From NCBI GenBank assembly GCA_963695555.1, contig CAVOGR010000001.1, forward strand, positions 1 to 64,000: a stretch of 64,000 nucleotides of DNA, in the 5' to 3' direction. Source of the stretch: an uncultured Gemmatimonadales bacterium (GTDB lineage: Bacteria; Gemmatimonadota; Gemmatimonadetes; Gemmatimonadales; GWC2-71-9). The position numbers were made by a program. Shown piece by piece: positions 6,001 through 51,000 of the stretch (position 1 is the stretch's first letter; every line of letters begins with the position of its first letter).

Positions 6001-9000
6001 CCCGCCCGACCTGGTCATCGTCTCGGGCCAGGGCCAGAGCGGCCCGGTCGGGACCGAGCTGCCCGACCCGTTGGTGGTGCGGGCCACCGGCGACAAGGAC
6101 AAGCCCTTGAAGGGCCAGCTGGTGAACTTCGTGGTGGTCGCGGGCGGCGGCAGCATGTTCGCCGGCTCGAGCATCACCAACAACGACGGCCTGGCCCAGG
6201 ACTTCCTGACCCTGGGGCCGGCGGCGGGCCAGAACGTGGTCGAGGTGCGGGCGGTCGACCCGGCCACCGGCGAGAAGCTGGTGTTCGCCCAGTTCACCGC
6301 CACCGGCATCGCACCCAGTCCAGTGACGCGGTTCACCGACGAGGCCGCGTTCCTCGCGGCCAGCGGCGCCGCCGTCGACGGTCACCTACCCGAACGCGAG
6401 GGCCCTCACCACCACCCCGTACGTCGAGAACGGTGTGACCCTCGCGAGCGCGGCCGGGTTCAACAATCGGATCGGCGAGGAGACACCCCTCCTGGCCGGC
6501 AACGAATTCGTGGTCAGCGGCGCCGAGAACGTCGATATCACGCTGAGTCCCGCGGTCAAGGCCTTTGGGCTCCGGATGCAGGATGGATTCGCCGTCGGGA
6601 ACGTCGGCACGTGTCCTCCCTTCCCCACATTCGACTCGCAGTTCACCTTCACCTTCAAGTCGGGCGGCACGACACTCGGCACGCTGACCGAAGATCCGCC
6701 GGTGGACGAGGTGTTCTTCCTCGGCGCCATCTTCAGCCAGCCGGTCGACCGGATCGAGATCCGCGAGCTCGGGTCGGTGATCGGCGACCTGGGGGATAAG
6801 TACTGCGAGAACGACTTCTTTGGGGTGATCTACACGGGGATGTGAGGGCAGGTTTGCGGGTTGGAGATCGCGACAGGTCAAATAGCTATTGGCTATTGGC
6901 TATTGGTCCTTTGCGGGTTGGTCGATCGCAACAAAGCATACGGCCATCACCGAAGGCACCTTCACCGGAGGCTATTACAGTGGGCAAGCACTTTCCGACG
7001 CTGCCGGACGATCACTTCCAGACGCCCTTCGCATACTCCGTACCCAAACGGCTCCGACCCTTCGAGCCGCCGCCTGGTGCTACGACATCCCCGCCGCCGG
7101 CGGTCCAGGATCAGGTGTTGGGCCGGACCGAGGAGTAAGGAGTAAGGAGCAACGAGTAAGGAGGCGGCTAACCTCCGGATTGTCATCCCGAGGGTGCGAA
7201 GCGCCCGAGGGATCTCAGTAACGCATGCCCGGGGCGTTACGTGGGCGAGGCTGAGGTCGGGGAAGAGTTGAGGAGATCCCTCGCTTCGCTCGGGATGACA
7301 GATTCGCCCAGGGTTGAGGGGATGTGATCGGGGCCCCCGTCGCTTTAGTGACAGATTGCCGAGTCGCGGCTTTAGCCGCGGACTGCGGGCGGAGGTCGAG
7401 GAACAGTCGAGAAGATCCCTCGCTCCGCTCGGGATGACACAACGACGGGAAGACGGGAAGTAAAGAAAGAGAGAGGTAGGACACCGATGCGCCGACCTAC
7501 CGACTGACCGACCGCCCTACTCTCCACTCCCCACTCCCTACTCCCAGCTGTACCCACGATCTTTCAGTGCCCCCGACCCATAGCCAACAGTCAACAGCTG
7601 CCGACCCTGGCGCCCTACTTCGTAGTATACTACATTGTAGTATATCTATTGATGGGGTAGTCGGGCGGTGATCCAATTCATTGAAACGACTGGATTTACC
7701 GACCGTATCCGCAAGCTGGGATTGGAGCCGGACCTTGAGGCCCTGCAGCAGGAGCTGCTGGCGAACCCCACGAGAGGCAAGCGGGACCCTGGCACCGGAG
7801 GTCTCCGCAAGGTGCGCATGCCGGACAGTGGCCGCGGCAAGGGAAAGAGTGGTGGTGCGCGGGTGCACTACTTGTACCTCCCGAAGCCGGCGGTCATCTA
7901 CCTGGTCTTCGTGTTCACCAAGGACGAACTCGACACCTTGTCGCCGGTGCAGAAAAAGCAGGTGCGCAGGCTCACGCAGGCGATCAAGCAGGAATGGCGC
8001 TCCCGTTCCTGACGGGACGAGAGGACGAGGTTATGGAAGACAAGCTCTACAAGGAATTCATGGTGTCGCTGGGCGAGGCGCTCGACCATGCCAAGGGCAA
8101 GCTCGAGCTCCGCACAACGACCCTGCCAGCCCCGCCGCATCCCATGAGTGCGGACGAGATCAGGTCACTCCGAGAGGACATTCATGCCTCGCAGGCGGTC
8201 TTCGCCCATTGCCTGAACGTCAGCACCAAGCTGGTCCAAGCCTGGGAAGCAAACCGGCGTCAGCCGCAGGGAGCCGCTCTACGACTATTGGACCTCGCGC
8301 GCCGAGAGCCGCAGGTGGTGTTTGGTGAGTTGATCGAGGGAGTAGGGAGTAGGGAGTAGGGAGTGGGAAGGCGGGTAACCTCTGAACTGTCATCCCGAGG
8401 GTGCGAAGCGCCCGAGGGATCTCACTACCGCATGCCCGGGGAGTCGTGGACCAAGGCCGCGTTCGGGTAGCAGTCGAGGAGATCCCTCGCTGCGCTCGGG
8501 ATGACGGAAGGCGGAAAGTCGGCCAGTGTGAAAGACGGAAAGGGCGAAGAGGAATCAGAAGTAGAATCCTTGACCGATTACTTCCCGTCTTCCCGCCTTT
8601 CCGTCTTAACGGTCGTCTGCCATTGACATACAATCGTATGCTTCTAGCATACATACATGCTCGCCGCACTCCTGGGCTCCCGCGCCCGCGCCGCCATCCT
8701 GGCCCGTCTCCTCCTCGCCCCCGACCGGGAGGAGCATCTGCGCGAGCTGGCCCGCGCCACCGGCTTCGCGCCCCGCACCGTGCAGGTCGAGGTCGATCGG
8801 CTAGTCGCAGCCGGCATCGTGCACGAGCGGCGTTCCGGCAACCGTCGGTACCTCTCGGCGGAAAAAGGCCACCCACTCTACAGCGGACTGTGCCAACTTC
8901 TCCAGGAGAGTTACGGCCTCGAGGCCGCTCTCAAGGAAGCTGTCAGAGACGTGCCCGCTATCGAGGAGGCGTTCATGTTCGGCTCGGCCGGCCGCGGCGA

Positions 9001-48000: not shown

Positions 48001-51000
48001 GCGCCTGAACACCCGCCGCCTGATCCGCCGAGGCGATGATGCCGATCTCGCGATAGACCATCTTCCGCCAGTCGCGGCCGCGCGGCGCCGGGGTGCCCCG
48101 GTTGTCCAAGCTGACCACGAGATAGCCCTGCTCGGTCAGGTATTGGTGCCACAGCATCGAGCGGCCCGCCCCAGCGATCCAGCACCGTCTGGCCTGCCGG
48201 CTCGCCGTACACGTAGAAGAGCACCGGGTACTTCTTGGATGGATCGAAATCGTTGGGCACCATCAGCCATCCGTCGAGCTTCACGCCGTTGCCGATGTCG
48301 ACTTGGAAGAATTCGGTGGGGCGAGCCTTGATCGCCTGAATCGTGGCCTTGAGCGAGTCGTTGGTCACCAGTGTGCGCGCCACGCGATGCTTCGGCAGCG
48401 TGATCAGGGAAGTCACCGTTGGCGTCTCGACATTCGAGTATCGGTGAAACGCCCACGTGGCGTCGGGCGACAGCTGGTAGCTGTGCGTTCCCGGCAGATC
48501 CATCGGCGAGAGTCGCTCGGCCTTGCCGCTTCCGGTCGAGCCGTGCACGGAAGAGGTAGCGCTGCGTCGCGTTGGTCGGCGAGGCCATGTAGTAGAGCCA
48601 ACCGCCCTCGTCGTCCACCTGCACGACGCTCACGATGTCGACGTTGGCCGGGGTGATCGGCATGATCGAGCGCCCATCCCGGGATACGCGGTACACCCGG
48701 CGCCATCCGTCGCGCTCGCTGACCCAGGTAAACGCCTTGCCACCGTCGAGCCAGTAGAGATCGTCGACCACGTCCACCCAGGCCGAGTCGGCGTCGGTCA
48801 TGATGGTCCGGACCGCCCCGGTGCGCGCGTCACCCAACATCACGCGGTTCGTGTTCTGGAGCCGGTTCAGCTGCTGGATGATGACCTCGTTGGGGCTCTC
48901 GGCCCACTCCATCCGGGCCAGGTAGTTGTTGCGCGGGTCGCCCTCGGTGGCGAACCAGGTGGTTGCGCCCCCGCTTGCCGGGACGACGCCGATCCGCGCC
49001 GCCGAGTTGGTGGTGCCCGCCTTGGGGTACTGGATGGGGATGACGTAGGAATAGAGCGAGTCGGTGTTGTTGATCAGGAGAAAGTCGCGCACGCCCTCCG
49101 CGTCGAGCTGCCAGTAGGCGATCCGGGCCCCGTCCGGGCTCCAGCGGAAGCCGTCCTGGAGGGACAACTCTTCCTCGTAGACCCAGTCGAAGGTGCCGTT
49201 GATGATGGTCGTCGAGCCGTCGTGGGTGAGCTGGGTGATCGCACCCGTCGTGAGGTCCTCGACGTAGATGTTGTTCTCCCGGACGTAACCGACCCGGGTG
49301 CCGTCGGGGGAGAACTTGGCGAACATGAGCGACGCTTCGGGCGCGCCGCCGCCCAATTGCCGGAGCTCCCCGCTCGCCACGTCGAGCACCCAGTAGTCGC
49401 CGCGGGTGTTGGTGCGCCAGACGCGGCGGGTGTTGGTGAAGACGAGGAGGCGTCCGTGATCTTCGGACCAGATGTAGTTGCTGATGCCGAGCGGCCGGGC
49501 TTGCCCGGCTGGGATGAGGGCCGACGCCGGGACCAGGACTTTGCGGTCACCGGTTCGCGCGTCGTATTCGACGATGTCACGCCCGCCGGGCGTTGTGTCC
49601 GAGCCCTCGAGTGTCGTGTACACACTGCCATTCAGCCATCGGGCCGGTCCGAAGTTGTCCCCAAAAAAATCACGCGACGCGAAGATGCGGTCGAGGGTGA
49701 GCCGCTCCACCGCGACATCCTGGGCCGCAATCGGAGCGGGAAGGCTGATGAGAACCACAAGGAAAGGTGCCAAACGAGAGAGACGCATAGTGACGATCCG
49801 TGGTGGAAGGAACGCCCTAAATGGAACGTGGGATGGGGCGCAGGGGAAGGGGTGAGCAAGGGAGTAGGGAGTAGGGAGTGGGGGAATGAGGCGGAAGGTG
49901 GTTGGTCGGTCGGACGGAACGTGAGTGGAATGTTGTTTTCTGGCTCGCCTTTCGCCTTTCGCCTTTTTGCTTCTTCGCCTCTTCGGCTTCCCGCCTTCCC
50001 GTCTCCCGCCCTAGTCCTGGCACGCCCTTTGCCTTTTGGACTAACGACGAAACGGACCTCGATGTGACGGATGACCACGCGGGATGCGCGCATGAGCCGT
50101 TCGACGCCAACCCAACCTGCCCGGGCTCTCCGGGCGCCGCGCCAGTCGGCGATTGGCTTGCCGATGGGCCTGGGGCTCTGCGTCGTGGGGTGGATCATGC
50201 CGCTCCCGATCGAGTCAGCTGCGCGGGCGCCGGAGCCGCCGGCGCGATTGACCATCGAGCGCTCGCTGCTCGGTAAGTTGCAGACCCTCGCGGCCGGACT
50301 CCGCTTGGAAATCGTCCTGTGTCTCGAGGGTACGCATACCGGCGATGGCGTGCACCTCACCGACTTCTTCATGCCCGATCCCGAAATGGCGGCCGGCGCA
50401 CGTGTGCTGGCTGCCCCCTGCCAAAGCACCACCGCCGCCGTGTGGCACAATCATCCGTTCGTGGACGCATTCCATGGGCCGGACGGAGTTCGCCCGCGTG
50501 GCGAACCCATTCGCGAGCCGCGACAACTCTGCGCGCTGTCTCGGAGCGACATCCGGACGACGATCGAGCGCGGCTATCCGTTCGTCGTGGTATCGGTCGA
50601 CGCCGAGACCTGGTGCTGGTGGACCCTCGACCAGGTCAAGCGGTTCGGGAGTGAACGGCTGCCGCTCGGACCAGCGATCGATGGACAAGGCTCCTGGCGC
50701 GGCCCCATCGCGTCGCTGCCCTAGGCCGCCCATTCACGGCACCGCAACACCACAACCAGTTGTAGAACGTCTTCCGCTGGTAAAGAATCCCGTAGTGGAG
50801 AATTCCGCTCGGGACCTTTCCTGTCTCTGCTGCGCCTGGAAGCTCGGCTGCCTCGGTCCAGCCGGCTCCATCGAATCAAGTGCCGTACCTGCAATGTTTT
50901 ACCCGTGAACCACCCGTCCGTGCTCGACGGCGCGGCGCTTGACGGGCCCGTCTGGACTGACCGCCTTCCTTACCGACCGGGGAATTGGGACCTATATTGT

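What a model noticed while it worked through the whole genome (the two positions that open the first line are those of the whole stretch)
7130..49880. Stop-codon-abutting heptanucleotide tandem repeats (GGGAGTA / GGAGTRA)n at 115 loci
The genome carries 121 tandem arrays (115 loci, at least 3 units each) of G-rich heptamers, chiefly GGGAGTA, GGAGTGA and GGAGTAA. It also has 35 arrays of GGCTATT/GGCTATC-type heptamers. The arrays lie almost wholly outside coding sequence, are strand-specific and sit at gene 3-prime ends. The G-rich strand is the sense strand, and the array starts within a few bases of the stop codon or overlaps it. Each unit holds a stop codon (TAG, TGA or TAA) and a Shine-Dalgarno-like GGAG. 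Because 7 = 1 mod 3, three units give a stop in every frame. The arrays are crowded in a few regions: 28 loci in C1:1-50,000 (the span given) and 24 in C2:1-100,000. About 15 are followed by a ~120-bp hairpin-ended el [...]
Evidence so far: My scan of all period-7 arrays found 192; by unit: ACTCCCT 62, ACTCCTC 29, AAGGAGT 16, AATAGCC 21, AGCCGAT 10. 82 of 121 arrays have a co-directional gene upstream, with a median distance to its stop of 2.5 nt. 63 of 115 loci start -45..+30 nt from the stop of a co-directional gene, against 1 of 115 in the antisense arrangement; 200 random placements give mean 4.2, max 12. 493 of 3442 array bases lie in called CDS, and the called stop lies inside the array for 37 of 66 arrays. 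(GGGAGTA)3: 40 hits here; 10, 16, 24 and 0 in the four congeners; 5 in one other genus; 0 in the 35 other relatives. The reversed-pattern control gave 0 in 40 genomes and 5 in one. Flanking hairpin element: its end occ [...]
(Added by a program. Inside this text positions count along the whole contig: contig position 1 is position 1 of the stretch shown here. "Call 12" and the like, gene names such as g00115 and contig names such as C1 are that model's own, and its searches are not shown. The text may have been shortened before it was handed on; [...] marks where a part breaks off. The agent that wrote the report below was given it as the finding of a first reader that could run no searches.)

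Follow-up and report, generated by a model that had tools for sequence, protein, structure and literature searches.

The report
Polar heptamer repeats hugging gene ends
The gaps between genes in this uncultured, probably Gemmatimonadota bacterium hold fast-changing 7- and 8-base tandem repeats whose G-rich strand always points away from the neighbouring gene, a real pattern that was already described in Xanthomonas and cyanobacteria and whose function is still unknown.

Summary
I find 114 GGAGT-type heptamer loci, none inside a gene. In 67 of them the array starts -60..+30 nt from the stop of a co-directional gene; random placement gives a mean of 4.4-9.3 and a maximum of 18. The three main units are each a stop codon plus GGAG (TAGGGAG, TGAGGAG, TAAGGAG).

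The "3-prime-end" framing is incomplete. The arrays are arms of inverted pairs, always ordered G-rich arm then C-rich arm on either strand, whatever the orientation of the flanking genes (53 of 54 mixed spacers). Thirty-six loci face a gene start. Arms abut stop codons but stay about 70 nt from start codons.

Between congeners with about 90% coding identity, arrays persist in the same spacers (15 of 18) but change copy number, unit or family. A palindromic element sits at pair centres, and one copy carries a GIY-YIG nuclease gene.

The positions, the convergent pairs, the depletion between divergent genes and the length variation were all published for GGGAATC/GGGGAYT repeats (Rehm 2015, PMC4692102). 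This scan has also noted the same class before in at least 78 other genomes. Verdict: a new member of a known, unexplained class. My best guess at function is slippage-driven palindromic satellites acting as U-tract-less hairpins after stop codons. The fixed polarity remains unexplained.

The parts
7131..7163 (+). G-rich heptamer arm (AGGAGTA)4.7
   Evidence: sequence
7172..7300 (.). palindromic hairpin element (TGTCATCCCGAG... ends); a second half-copy lies at 7388-7440
7492..7545 (-). C-rich arms: octamer CCGACCGA, then heptamer CCCCACT/CCCTACT
8337..8368 (+). G-rich arm (AGGGAGT)4.7; the gene's TAG stop lies 3 units inside it
8379..8505 (.). hairpin element
8581..8607 (-). C-rich octamer arm (CTTCCCGT)3.4, ending at the next gene's promoter-like TTGACA
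9638..9759 (+). G-rich arm (GGAGTRA), about 14 units; the gene's TGA stop lies inside it
9797..9923 (.). hairpin element
9958..9994 (-). C-rich octamer arm (GCCGATCC)4.6
10708..10773 (+). G-rich arm in a divergent spacer, facing the start of a minus-strand operon
10787..10913 (.). hairpin element
10945..11013 (-). C-rich octamer arm (CCGCCGAT)8.6
11958..12014 (+). G-rich arm starting directly after an independent TGA stop
12028..12155 (.). hairpin element
12162..12202 (-). C-rich octamer arm (CCAACCGC)5.1
18079..18113 (+). G-rich arm (GAGTGAG)5
19521..19651 (.). octamer pair: (CGGGAAGA)2.9 G-rich, then (CCGAACCG)4.2 C-rich
21296..21321 (+). G-rich arm (AGGAGTG)3.7
21341..21462 (.). hairpin element
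21598..21628 (-). C-rich arm (CTCCTCA)4.4; pairs fully with 21296-21321 in the predicted fold
22354..22406 (+). G-rich arm (GGAGTGA)7.6; 9.6 units in G002
22426..22552 (.). hairpin element (inverted copy)
22611..22635 (-). C-rich octamer arm (TCCCGCCC)3.1
24260..24328 (+). G-rich arm; peptidase M28 gene reads about 50 nt into it before its TGA
24339..24467 (.). hairpin element
24474..24605 (.). octamer pair: (CGGGAAGA)5.9 G-rich, then (CCGACCTA/CGCCTTCC) C-rich, abutting the stop of the minus-strand gene
25726..25811 (.). octamer pair: (GGCGGATG)3.6, then (CGAACCGC)4.4
26829..26877 (+). G-rich arm (GGAGTGA)6.6; the RES-domain gene's TGA lies inside it
26897..27024 (.). hairpin element (inverted copy)
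27038..27068 (-). C-rich arm (CCTACTC)4.4 after the stop of the minus-strand PNPOx gene
27737..28017 (.). G-rich (ATAGGGA)3.7, then C-rich (CCGACTC)3.3 and (CCGACTTT)5.9
28906..29006 (+). G-rich arm, about 15 units, starting at the gene's own TGA; absent from the orthologous G002 spacer
29015..29145 (.). hairpin element (reference copy)
29159..29220 (-). C-rich arm (ACTCCCG/ACTCCCT)8.9; the minus-strand gene's TAG lies inside it
30653..30685 (+). G-rich arm (GGAGTAG)4.7, 4 nt from the START of the minus-strand gene
30707..31214 (.). long copy of the hairpin element carrying a GIY-YIG ORF (30864-31184, +); G002 has both arms but no element
31287..31306 (-). C-rich arm (TCCCTAC)2.9
33830..33851 (+). 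G-rich arm (GAGTGAG)3.1; the PfkB gene's TGA lies inside it
34877..34915 (+). G-rich arm (GGAGTAG)4.3; the gene's TAG lies inside it
34935..35056 (.). hairpin element
35070..35090 (-). C-rich arm (ACTCCCT)3; the minus-strand gene's TAG lies inside it
37877..37902 (+). G-rich arm (AGGGAGT)3.7, facing a gene start at about 70 nt
38004..38045 (-). C-rich arm (ACTCCCT)6 (8.9 in G002); the gene's TAG lies inside it; pairs fully with 37877-37902
39670..39817 (.). (AGTRAGT)9 G-rich, then (CCTACCA/CCTACCT) C-rich
46677..46708 (+). G-rich arm starting 4 nt after an independent TGA
46790..46816 (-). C-rich arm (CCTACTC)3.9; 81% of the G arm pairs with it
49859..50010 (.). (AGGGAGT)3.6 G-rich, then (TCGCCTT)3.1 and (CTTCCCGC)3.1 C-rich, in a divergent spacer
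53177..53201 (+).
6885..6906 (+). GCTAT-family arm (GCTATTG)3.1
15013..15135 (.). GCTAT-family arms: (GGCTATT), (GCTATTG), then the complement (GCCAATA)
16650..16769 (.). GCTAT-family pair: (GCTATCG)2.9, then (GATAGCT)3
32790..32866 (.). GCTAT-family pair: (AGCTATT)4, then (AGCCAAT)3.6; the orthologous G002 spacer has a GGAGTGA pair instead

Best explanation
This is a lineage-specific family of the already described polar, G-rich heptamer simple-sequence repeats. The class includes STRR-type satellites and the Xanthomonas GGGAATC and Nostoc GGGGAYT repeats.

Shown here. The arrays grow and shrink in 7- or 8-nt steps. They swap unit type in place. They occupy whatever spacer DNA is not constrained, from the stop codon up to roughly 70 nt before the next start codon. 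They are organised as one nested palindrome per spacer, with the G-rich arm 5-prime on both strands.

Inferred. Where the two arms are complementary, the transcript from either flanking gene folds into a long hairpin without a U-tract right after the stop codon. This would act like a REP/BIME element or an 'I-shaped' terminator: a two-way transcription stop and/or a 3-prime-end protector.

Inferred for this genus. The unit is a stop codon plus GGAG, so the G-rich arm closes all three frames. An array can therefore run over a gene's own stop at the cost of only a short tail. That explains the tight abutment without the stops being the purpose of the arrays.

Not explained. Why the G-rich arm always comes first.
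For: Slippage and turnover. In 21 orthologous spacers of G000 and G002 (about 90% coding identity), 18 carry arrays in at least one genome and 15 carry them in both. Copy numbers differ (7.6 vs 9.6, 6 vs 8.9, 6.6 vs 8.3). By my reading, about half have changed unit or family, for example a GGAGTAG pair replaced by a GCTATT pair. A contig of a public run carries two extra units at 25699.

One palindrome per spacer. Fifty-four spacers hold arrays of both skews, and 53 of them are ordered G before C. The plain GC pattern occurs 14, 8, 14 and 8 times in ++, --, +- and -+ spacers. The rest are nested forms (GGC, GCC, GGCC). The one exception is GGGGCG. With strict units, GC outnumbers CG 13 to 0, and in the GCTAT family forward-reverse outnumbers reverse-forward 6 to 0. 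In 125 loci from other phyla with the same 21-mer, a C-rich partner lies downstream in 13 and upstream in 0.

Hairpin potential. In 31 of 51 pairs at least half of the G arm pairs with the C arm in the predicted fold. Most heptamer-heptamer pairs score z -7 to -14. Some convergent gene pairs are separated by nothing except such a hairpin, for example C1:823542-823613 (72 nt, -71 kcal/mol).

Spacer type. Spacers with arrays per kb of spacer: convergent 0.52, co-directional 0.30, divergent 0.17. Canonical hairpin-plus-T terminators are not enriched in window 20-40 kb (9 found, 9.6 expected).

Boundaries. Stop-facing arms lie within -60..+30 nt in 50 of 71 and 44 of 54 cases. Start-facing arms do so in 10 of 43 and 13 of 48 cases, at medians of 77 and 69 nt.

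Precedent. PMC4692102 (abstract, sections 13 and 16, and passages read) reports the same positions and 70-75 convergent pairs per Xanthomonas genome.
Against: Eighty-three of the 142 array-bearing spacers hold arrays of one skew only (78 hold a single array). Many pairs join a heptamer arm to a non-complementary octamer arm (20 of 51 pair less than 50%).

My fold test for stop-abutting arrays could not separate real from shuffled downstream sequence (median 0.71 vs 0.64).

Only about 3% of genes have an array, and the arrays are strongly clustered. They therefore cannot be this organism's general terminator.

A hairpin works equally well in either polarity, so this model does not explain the fixed G-first order.

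There is no expression evidence. The RNA-library runs were contigs only, and these break at the repeats.
Confidence: 0.4

Rival explanations
1. Purely selfish or neutral satellite. Slippage-prone repeats and palindromic mobile DNA pile up where selection allows, and they have no function for the cell. The abutment to stops and the gap before starts simply mark where constraint begins.
For: Unit and family turnover is fast at orthologous sites. Both families cluster strongly in the same few regions (variance/mean 10). Arrays co-occur with a palindromic element, REP-like hairpins and toxin-antitoxin modules. Unit sequences differ between congeners and genera. Arrays reach into coding ends, giving 24-25 proteins short array-encoded tails.
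Against: Array presence in a given spacer is retained (15 of 18) while the sequence changes. The syntenic region is array-dense in three congeners: 43 period-7 arrays in 40 kb of G002 and 16 in 39 kb of G003. The G-first order holds across unit families, spacer types and phyla, which drift alone does not predict. Some shared mechanism or constraint is still needed.
Confidence: 0.3
2. Directional Rho insulators. The strand reading outward from the spacer into either neighbouring gene is C-rich and G-free, as in (UACUCCC)n. RNA that enters a gene from outside would then carry a Rho loading site; this covers antisense RNA at 3-prime ends and read-through RNA upstream of promoters. The gene's own outgoing RNA is G-rich and Rho-inert.
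For: This model predicts the observed order in all four spacer types. It predicts the ~70-nt gap before start codons, because the promoter must lie inside the gate. It also allows non-complementary arms and varied units. The genome encodes two Rho homologues. T-tract terminators are not enriched. That Rho prefers C-rich, G-poor RNA is recalled knowledge, not tested here.
Against: Complementary arms would sequester the C-rich arm in through-going transcripts. Arrays (median 32 nt) are shorter than typical Rho loading regions (recalled). Repeat-free spacers show no such skew after stops (about 0) and only a weak one before starts (0.02-0.08). The outward strand of the GCTAT family is only weakly C-rich.
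Confidence: 0.12
3. Ribosome-directed element. Each unit (TRR-GGAG) is a stop codon plus a Shine-Dalgarno-like site complementary to the 16S rRNA tail. The array would terminate ribosomes in any frame and hold or pause 30S subunits at the mRNA 3-prime end.
For: Units counted: TAGGGAG 170, TGAGGAG 94, TAAGGAG 80, and the stop-less TGGGGAG only 28. The 16S 3-prime end of congeners G002 and G004 reads GGATCACCTCCTTTCT, so AAGGAG pairs perfectly with CUCCUU, and AGGGAG or GAGGAG pair with one G-U (inference). SD is used in this genome: GGAG-type words peak at -11, and 901 of 2696 genes have one at -20..-5. GGAG sits at +3, +10 and +17 after stops in 46-48 genes, against a background of about 18.
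Against: Thirty-six of 114 loci face gene starts in antisense, where this logic does not apply. Congener G003 mostly uses GTCGTGA/GACGTGA units without GGAG, and genus g20 uses GGGACGA/GGGGATG without stops. The GCTAT family and the octamer arrays obey the same positional rules with no SD and no stops on the gene-facing strand. The published GGGAATC and GGGGAYT units have neither.
Confidence: 0.07
4. G-quadruplex element, as proposed for the Xanthomonas and Nostoc repeats. Four or more G-tracts would fold into a G4 in DNA or RNA and modulate transcription.
For: Forty-nine of 114 loci contain a canonical G4 motif (four G3+ tracts, loops of 1-7 nt). PMC4692102 showed G4 formation in vitro for its units (abstract and discussion read).
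Against: Sixty-five of 114 loci lack the motif. The TGAGGAG and TAAGGAG units have only GG. Exact run lengths fall steadily (56, 29, 12, 9, 3...) with no preference for four units. The GCTAT family cannot form a G4.
Confidence: 0.06

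Closest known systems
G-rich heptamer SSRs of Xanthomonas (GGGAATC) and Nostoc PCC 7120 (GGGGAYT), Rehm et al. 2015, PLoS One, PMC4692102 (abstract, sections 13 and 16, and passages on inverted repeats read)
   Same: Tandem G-rich heptamers that are intergenic. [quoted passage not shown] They are closer to the 5-prime neighbour whatever its orientation. There are many 'convergent' inverted pairs. They are under-represented between divergent ORFs. Length and sequence vary between close relatives. Function is unknown.
   Different: Here the units are stop codon plus GGAG. 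There is no preference for four units, and more than half of loci lack a G4 motif. The loci are strongly clustered, whereas the paper reports dispersal all over the genome. Several unit families and octamer arrays share the same rules. A palindromic element, one copy of which carries a GIY-YIG gene, is nested at pair centres.
Cyanobacterial STRR (short tandemly repeated repetitive) heptamers. The name and the classic units are recalled; only lists papers that use the term.
   Same: Intergenic tandem heptamers. The very 21-mer (GGGAGTA)3 occurs in Nostoc, Okeania, Moorena, Trichodesmium, Rivularia and others. Where it has a partner, the order is also G-first (13 vs 0).
   Different: In the 28 foreign loci with full flanks I could not show abutment to ORF ends (6 vs 3 of 28 at 120 or more open codons). 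The phylum here is different and the genome has 65% GC.
TAACTGA direct repeats of Beggiatoaceae, cyanobacteria and Bacteroidetes, MacGregor 2015, PMC4679880 (abstract and outline read)
   Same: An abundant intergenic heptamer that carries stop codons, is patchily distributed across phyla, and has unknown function.
   Different: According to the abstract those repeats sit mostly just upstream of start codons and almost never as inverted pairs (one indirect repeat against 169 direct sets). Here the arrays hug stop codons and pair up.
REP/BIME extragenic palindromes and U-tract-less 'I-shaped' terminators of GC-rich bacteria (recalled knowledge; PMC3733652 seen only as a search listing)
   Same: Extragenic hairpins at gene 3-prime ends. 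They are enriched between convergent genes and are proposed to stop transcription or protect mRNA 3-prime ends.
   Different: REPs are single 20-40-bp palindromes tied to a RAYT transposase. Here the stems are built from tandem repeats. The genome's one Y1 transposase gene is flanked by a different hairpin, GCGGCTGAAGCCGC.

Membership tests
Polar G-rich heptamer SSR class (Rehm 2015) | Head-to-tail heptamer units, G-rich on one strand, far above chance | tested here: met
   85 exact period-7 arrays against 1-17 at periods 5, 6, 8 and 9. 143 TRF arrays.
Polar G-rich heptamer SSR class (Rehm 2015) | Over-represented in non-coding DNA | tested here: met
   0 of 114 GGAGT-family loci inside a called gene.
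Polar G-rich heptamer SSR class (Rehm 2015) | [quoted passage not shown] | tested here: met
   67 of 114 at a co-directional stop, against 2 flipped. G arms lie near the left gene and C arms near the right gene for both gene orientations.
Polar G-rich heptamer SSR class (Rehm 2015) | Convergent inverted pairs | tested here: met
   53 of 54 mixed spacers ordered G then C. 13 vs 0 with strict units.
Polar G-rich heptamer SSR class (Rehm 2015) | Under-represented between divergent ORFs | tested here: met
   0.17 array-bearing spacers per kb (divergent), against 0.30 (co-directional) and 0.52 (convergent).
Polar G-rich heptamer SSR class (Rehm 2015) | Length and sequence variation between close relatives at the same spacer | tested here: met
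   21 orthologous spacers of G000 and G002 compared. Alignments.
Polar G-rich heptamer SSR class (Rehm 2015) | Preference for four units / G-quadruplex formation | tested here: not met
   Run lengths fall steadily. 49 of 114 loci have a G4 motif. Physical folding cannot be tested here. This feature concerns their proposed property, not the positional definition.
REP/BIME | Short single palindrome family associated with, and flanking, a RAYT (Y1) transposase gene | tested here: not met
   The single Y1_Tnp gene at C3:49188-49646 is flanked by GCGGCTGAAGCCGC-type hairpins. Heptamer arrays only lie nearby.
Canonical intrinsic terminator | GC-rich hairpin followed by a T/U tract | tested here: not met
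   No T tract follows the arms. The terminator scan of 20-40 kb gives 9 sites against 9.6 expected, none at an array pair.
MITE (for the ~130-bp hairpin element only) | Terminal inverted repeats, many gene-less copies, insertion polymorphism, a gene-bearing relative | tested here: inconclusive
   15 full copies with TGTCATCCCGAG... ends. Presence/absence differs between G000 and G002. One copy carries a GIY-YIG ORF. Target-site duplications and nuclease activity were not examined.
Rfam RNA families | Match to a curated covariance model | tested here: not met
   0 matches at gathering score in the window. Only one chance-level hit (E 0.42) over 28850-29260.

The most novel reading that the evidence does not exclude
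The G-first order is the real signal. It holds in every spacer type, for every unit family here, and for the same unit in other phyla. The boldest reading my evidence allows is that the arrays are directional transcription insulators. On this reading the outward-reading strand next to every gene is a G-free, C-rich tandem Rho loading site. Any RNA invading a gene from the spacer would then be terminated, whether it is antisense at the 3-prime end or read-through at the 5-prime end. The gene's own outgoing RNA is G-rich and Rho-inert, and it captures the far C-rich arm into a hairpin. That would give this long-unexplained repeat class a general function.
Probability: 0.12. Interest if true: 0.7.

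Novelty: new member of a known kind. Interest (0 to 1): 0.35.

Why it matters
Polar heptamer repeats are now seen in Xanthomonas, cyanobacteria, and here in a probable Gemmatimonadota genus. By this scan's own earlier notes they also occur in many other phyla. No function or generating mechanism is known.

This genome adds several clean constraints that any model must meet:
- The order is G-first regardless of gene orientation (53 of 54 mixed spacers).
- Arms abut stop codons but leave room for a promoter before start codons.
- Array presence is conserved while units turn over.
- Stops, SD-likeness and G4 potential are each dispensable somewhere in the class.

It also shows a palindromic element, one copy with a GIY-YIG gene, nesting at the centres of array pairs. 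In itself the locus is one more example of the class, not a new system.

Tried and rejected
- Expression. Public runs gave three RNA-library runs and one DNA run, all as assembled contigs. The contigs break at or join across the arrays because they are repeats, so they show no transcript ends and do not even show transcription. The only usable item is a +14-nt (two-unit) variant at 25699.
- Rfam. No family at gathering score. Only a chance-level hit at E 0.42 on one array-hairpin-array spacer.
- 16S of G000. Not found; the genome is 87% complete. I used the congeners' 16S instead.
- ORF abutment in other phyla. Among the 28 foreign loci with full flanks, open frames of 120 or more codons running into the array numbered 6, against 3 for each other arrangement. 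This is inconclusive. My filter dropped 97 of the 125 loci.
- Fold test of stop-abutting arrays against their downstream spacer. Real 0.71 against shuffled 0.64 paired. It is uninformative, because G-rich arrays pair with any GC-rich sequence.
- General skew. Repeat-free spacers show no GC skew after stops and only 0.02-0.08 before starts. The arrays are therefore not an exaggeration of a genome-wide composition rule.
- Integron-like cassette array (my early idea, from the toxin-antitoxin genes at 7.6-12 kb). I dropped it because the same arrays flank syntenic housekeeping genes such as peptidases, PfkB and isocitrate dehydrogenase. I did not search for an integrase.
- CsrA sponge. No CsrA match in G000 at 87% completeness.
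- RAYT link. See the membership table.
- Replication link. GC-skew curves of C1, C2, C5 and C7 gave no clear tie between the clusters and an origin or terminus.
- Literature. A search for 'gemmatimonad' + 'heptam' + 'repeat' returned 5 papers, none relevant by title (listing only). A search for 'GGGAGTA' anywhere returned 5,480 papers; the 10 listed were irrelevant by title.

Full report
WHAT IS THERE

The window is the first 64 kb of contig C1 of a 3.57-Mb, 14-contig, 65% GC genome. TRF lists dozens of period-7 arrays and, beside them, many period-8 arrays.

Across the genome, exact arrays of at least three units number 85 at period 7. At periods 5, 6, 8 and 9 they number 14, 17, 13 and 1. 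With mismatches allowed there are 143 period-7 arrays: ACTCCCT 54, ACTCCTC 25, AATAGCC 14, AAGGAGT 11, AGCCGAT 7. There are also 44 period-8 arrays. After merging I get 114 GGAGT-family loci and 38 GCTAT-family loci.

They are 40 here, then 10, 16, 0 and 24 in the congeners, 5 in one other genus, and 5 for the reversed control in one genome.

The organism is probably a member of Gemmatimonadota. A MAG with that title shares a 342-nt flank at 83% identity with C5, and the gene content fits. I did not establish the phylum independently.

POSITION RELATIVE TO GENES

No gene caller was installed, so I built a codon log-odds caller. It gives 3341 genes covering about 88% of the genome.

- None of the 114 loci lies inside a gene.
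- Seventy-eight have a co-directional gene upstream, at a median distance of -0.5 nt.
- Thirty-six instead face the start of an opposite-strand gene.
- Sixty-seven of 114 start -60..+30 nt from a co-directional stop, against 2 when the orientation is flipped.
- Two hundred random placements give a mean of 4.4 (max 11) genome-wide and 9.3 (max 18) within intergenic DNA only.

This does not explain the result. In 26 of the 67 the gene has its own stop 0-15 nt before the array. In 16 the stop is the first in-phase unit. In 24-25 the frame runs one to six units into the array, which gives the protein a short repeat-encoded tail.

THE UNIT

Cutting the arrays in phase gives TAGGGAG 170, TGAGGAG 94, TAAGGAG 80 and TGGGGAG 28. 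These are the three stop codons, each followed by GGAG; the stop-less variant is the rarest.

The 16S rRNA of congeners G002 and G004 ends GGATCACCTCCTTTCT. AAGGAG is therefore complementary to its tail, and AGGGAG or GAGGAG pair with one G-U (inference).

The genome does use Shine-Dalgarno sites. GGAG-type words peak at -11, and GGAG also stands out at +3, +10 and +17 after stop codons.

THE KEY ADDITION: THE POLARITY BELONGS TO THE SPACER, NOT TO THE GENE

I classified every array of period 7 or 8 by GC skew and listed the arrays spacer by spacer. Fifty-four spacers contain arrays of both skews. In 53 of them every G-rich array precedes every C-rich array on the top strand, and so also on the bottom strand. 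The plain GC pattern occurs 14, 8, 14 and 8 times in ++, --, +- and -+ spacers. The rest are nested forms (GGC, GCC, GGCC). The single exception reads GGGGCG.

With strict unit patterns the GGAGT family gives 13 GC and 0 CG. The GCTAT family gives 6 forward-reverse and 0 reverse-forward. The divergent spacer at 10640-11060 shows this plainly.

Arms hug stop codons: 50 of 71 and 44 of 54 lie within -60..+30 nt. They stay a median of 69-77 nt from start codons, which is about the room a promoter and leader need. At 8581-8650 the C-rich arm ends at a TTGACA.

Array-bearing spacers are most frequent per kb between convergent genes (0.52). Co-directional spacers follow (0.30), and divergent spacers are least frequent (0.17).

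The same order holds for the same unit elsewhere. In 125 loci from cyanobacteria, Planctomycetota, Anaerolineae and others, a C-rich partner lies downstream in 13 and upstream in 0.

EVOLUTION

G002 is syntenic with window 9.8-50.3 kb at about 90% identity, and G003 is syntenic at 70-85%.

Of 21 orthologous G000/G002 spacers, 18 carry arrays in at least one genome and 15 carry them in both. Copy numbers differ. By my reading, about half have a different unit or family; for example a GGAGTAG pair is replaced by a GCTATT pair, and a 15-unit arm is absent from G002.

The syntenic G002 stretch holds 43 period-7 arrays in 40 kb. G003 holds 16 in 39 kb, mostly of other units such as GTCGTGA, GACGTGA and GACTCAC. 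A sample of genus g20 shows (GGGACGA)n followed by (CCCCGTC)n.

So a spacer's tendency to carry arrays, and the polarity of those arrays, persist while the sequence does not.

The loci are strongly clustered: 28 in C1:0-50 kb, 23 in C2:0-100 kb and 14 in C1:700-800 kb. The GCTAT family clusters in the same bins.

NESTED ELEMENT

A roughly 130-bp palindromic element with TGTCATCCCGAG... ends has 15 full copies. Thirteen have a G-rich arm 9-38 nt to the left and 12 have a C-rich arm to the right.

One copy (30707-31214) carries a 106-aa ORF that matches the Pfam GIY-YIG domain (E 1.8e-13). At that spacer G002 has both arms but no element.

Of 17 homologous genes in the family, 10 are flanked by an exact inverted repeat of at least 10 nt. 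Seven of those repeats are of the TGTCATYSCGAG kind.

The genome's single Y1-transposase gene is flanked by a different REP-like hairpin.

HOW IT MAY WORK

Predicted folds pair at least half of the G arm with the C arm in 31 of 51 pairs. Most heptamer-heptamer pairs score z -7 to -14. Some convergent genes are separated by nothing else. T-tract terminators are not enriched.

I therefore favour, at 0.4, slippage-driven palindromic satellites that behave as U-tract-less hairpins after stop codons. On this view the all-frame stops are what allows an arm to overrun a gene end harmlessly.

Against this:
- 83 of 142 array-bearing spacers hold arrays of one skew only.
- Many arms are not complementary.
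- Only about 3% of genes are involved.
- A hairpin does not care about polarity.

A purely neutral or selfish reading (0.3) fits the turnover and the clustering, but not the conserved presence and polarity.

A Rho-insulator reading (0.12) uniquely predicts the polarity. However, it finds no support in repeat-free spacers, and pairing would hide the Rho loading site.

The ribosome/anti-SD reading (0.07) and the G4 reading (0.06) each fail for part of the class.

WHAT IS KNOWN

Rehm et al. 2015 (PMC4692102) described the following for GGGAATC and GGGGAYT repeats:
- an intergenic bias;
- location within 50 bp after stops on the coding strand, or before ORFs on the non-coding strand;
- proximity to the 5-prime neighbour whatever its orientation;
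- 70-75 convergent pairs per Xanthomonas genome;
- depletion between divergent ORFs;
- variation between close relatives.

They left the function open. MacGregor 2015 (PMC4679880, abstract) described TAACTGA repeats, mostly upstream of start codons. A Nostoc preprint (10.1101/2022.06.06.494920, passages) reports modest promoter effects of other heptamers.

This scan's own notes list 82 earlier findings of the same kind in at least 78 genomes; they are unchecked by me. I found no paper on such repeats in Gemmatimonadota (listing only).

VERDICT

This is a new member of a known, unexplained repeat class. Its local peculiarities are stop-plus-SD units, strong clustering, and the palindromic element nested at pair centres, one copy of which carries a GIY-YIG gene.

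Noticed in passing
window 30707-31214 (ORF 30864-31184, +): This long copy of the ~130-bp palindromic element carries a 106-aa GIY-YIG nuclease gene (Pfam E 1.8e-13). The short copies look like its gene-less derivatives. The elements sit at the centres of array pairs, and G002 has the same spacer with both arms but no element. Seven of 17 homologous genes in the family are flanked by TGTCATYSCGAG inverted ends.
   Followed up: partly
G000 C3:49188-49646 (outside the window); similar hairpin at window 7355-7390: The genome has a single Y1 (IS200/RAYT-like) transposase gene. It is flanked on both sides by a REP-like hairpin, GCGGCTGAAGCCGC... Related GCGGCTTTAGCCGC hairpins occur in array-rich spacers of G000 and G002.
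   Followed up: partly
window 7668-12000 and 25894-26859: A run of small two-gene modules of toxin-antitoxin type, each spacer filled by array, hairpin element and array. The modules are MazE-like + Fic/Doc (10001-10627, -), nucleotidyltransferase + partner (8657-9663), RHH + DUF6036 nucleotidyltransferase (11065-11957), and an unnamed ORF + RES domain (25894-26859).
   Followed up: no
window 1-7000: Coding density is low and there is a short UvrD-helicase fragment (352-1086). This suggests decayed genes or indel errors at the contig start.
   Followed up: no
G000 C1:345880-346101 and C5:170390-170602: Two separate genes match the Rho RNA-binding domain (open frames of 427 and 436 aa), so there may be two Rho paralogues.
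   Followed up: no
L146+L147 (G003:C3) and L151 (G023:C1:18080-18668): Other lineages of the family use other heptamers in the same G-then-C layout. G003 uses GTCGTGA/GACGTGA/GACTCAC. G023 has (GGGACGA)4 then (CCCCGTC)4, and (GGGGGAC)4.6 then (CCCGTCC)4.6. G025 has CCTCTGTG/CACAGAGG octamers.
   Followed up: partly
window 25699: A contig of a public run from an estuary RNA library, about 95% identical to the window over 1.3 kb, carries 14 extra bases (two heptamer units) here. This shows copy-number variation among close relatives in nature.
   Followed up: no
window 24255-24310 and 23-24 other genes genome-wide: Reading frames run one to six units into the arrays. Proteins such as the M28 peptidase at 22718-24310 therefore end in short Gly/Ser/Glu/Lys/Val-rich tails encoded by the repeat.
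   Followed up: partly
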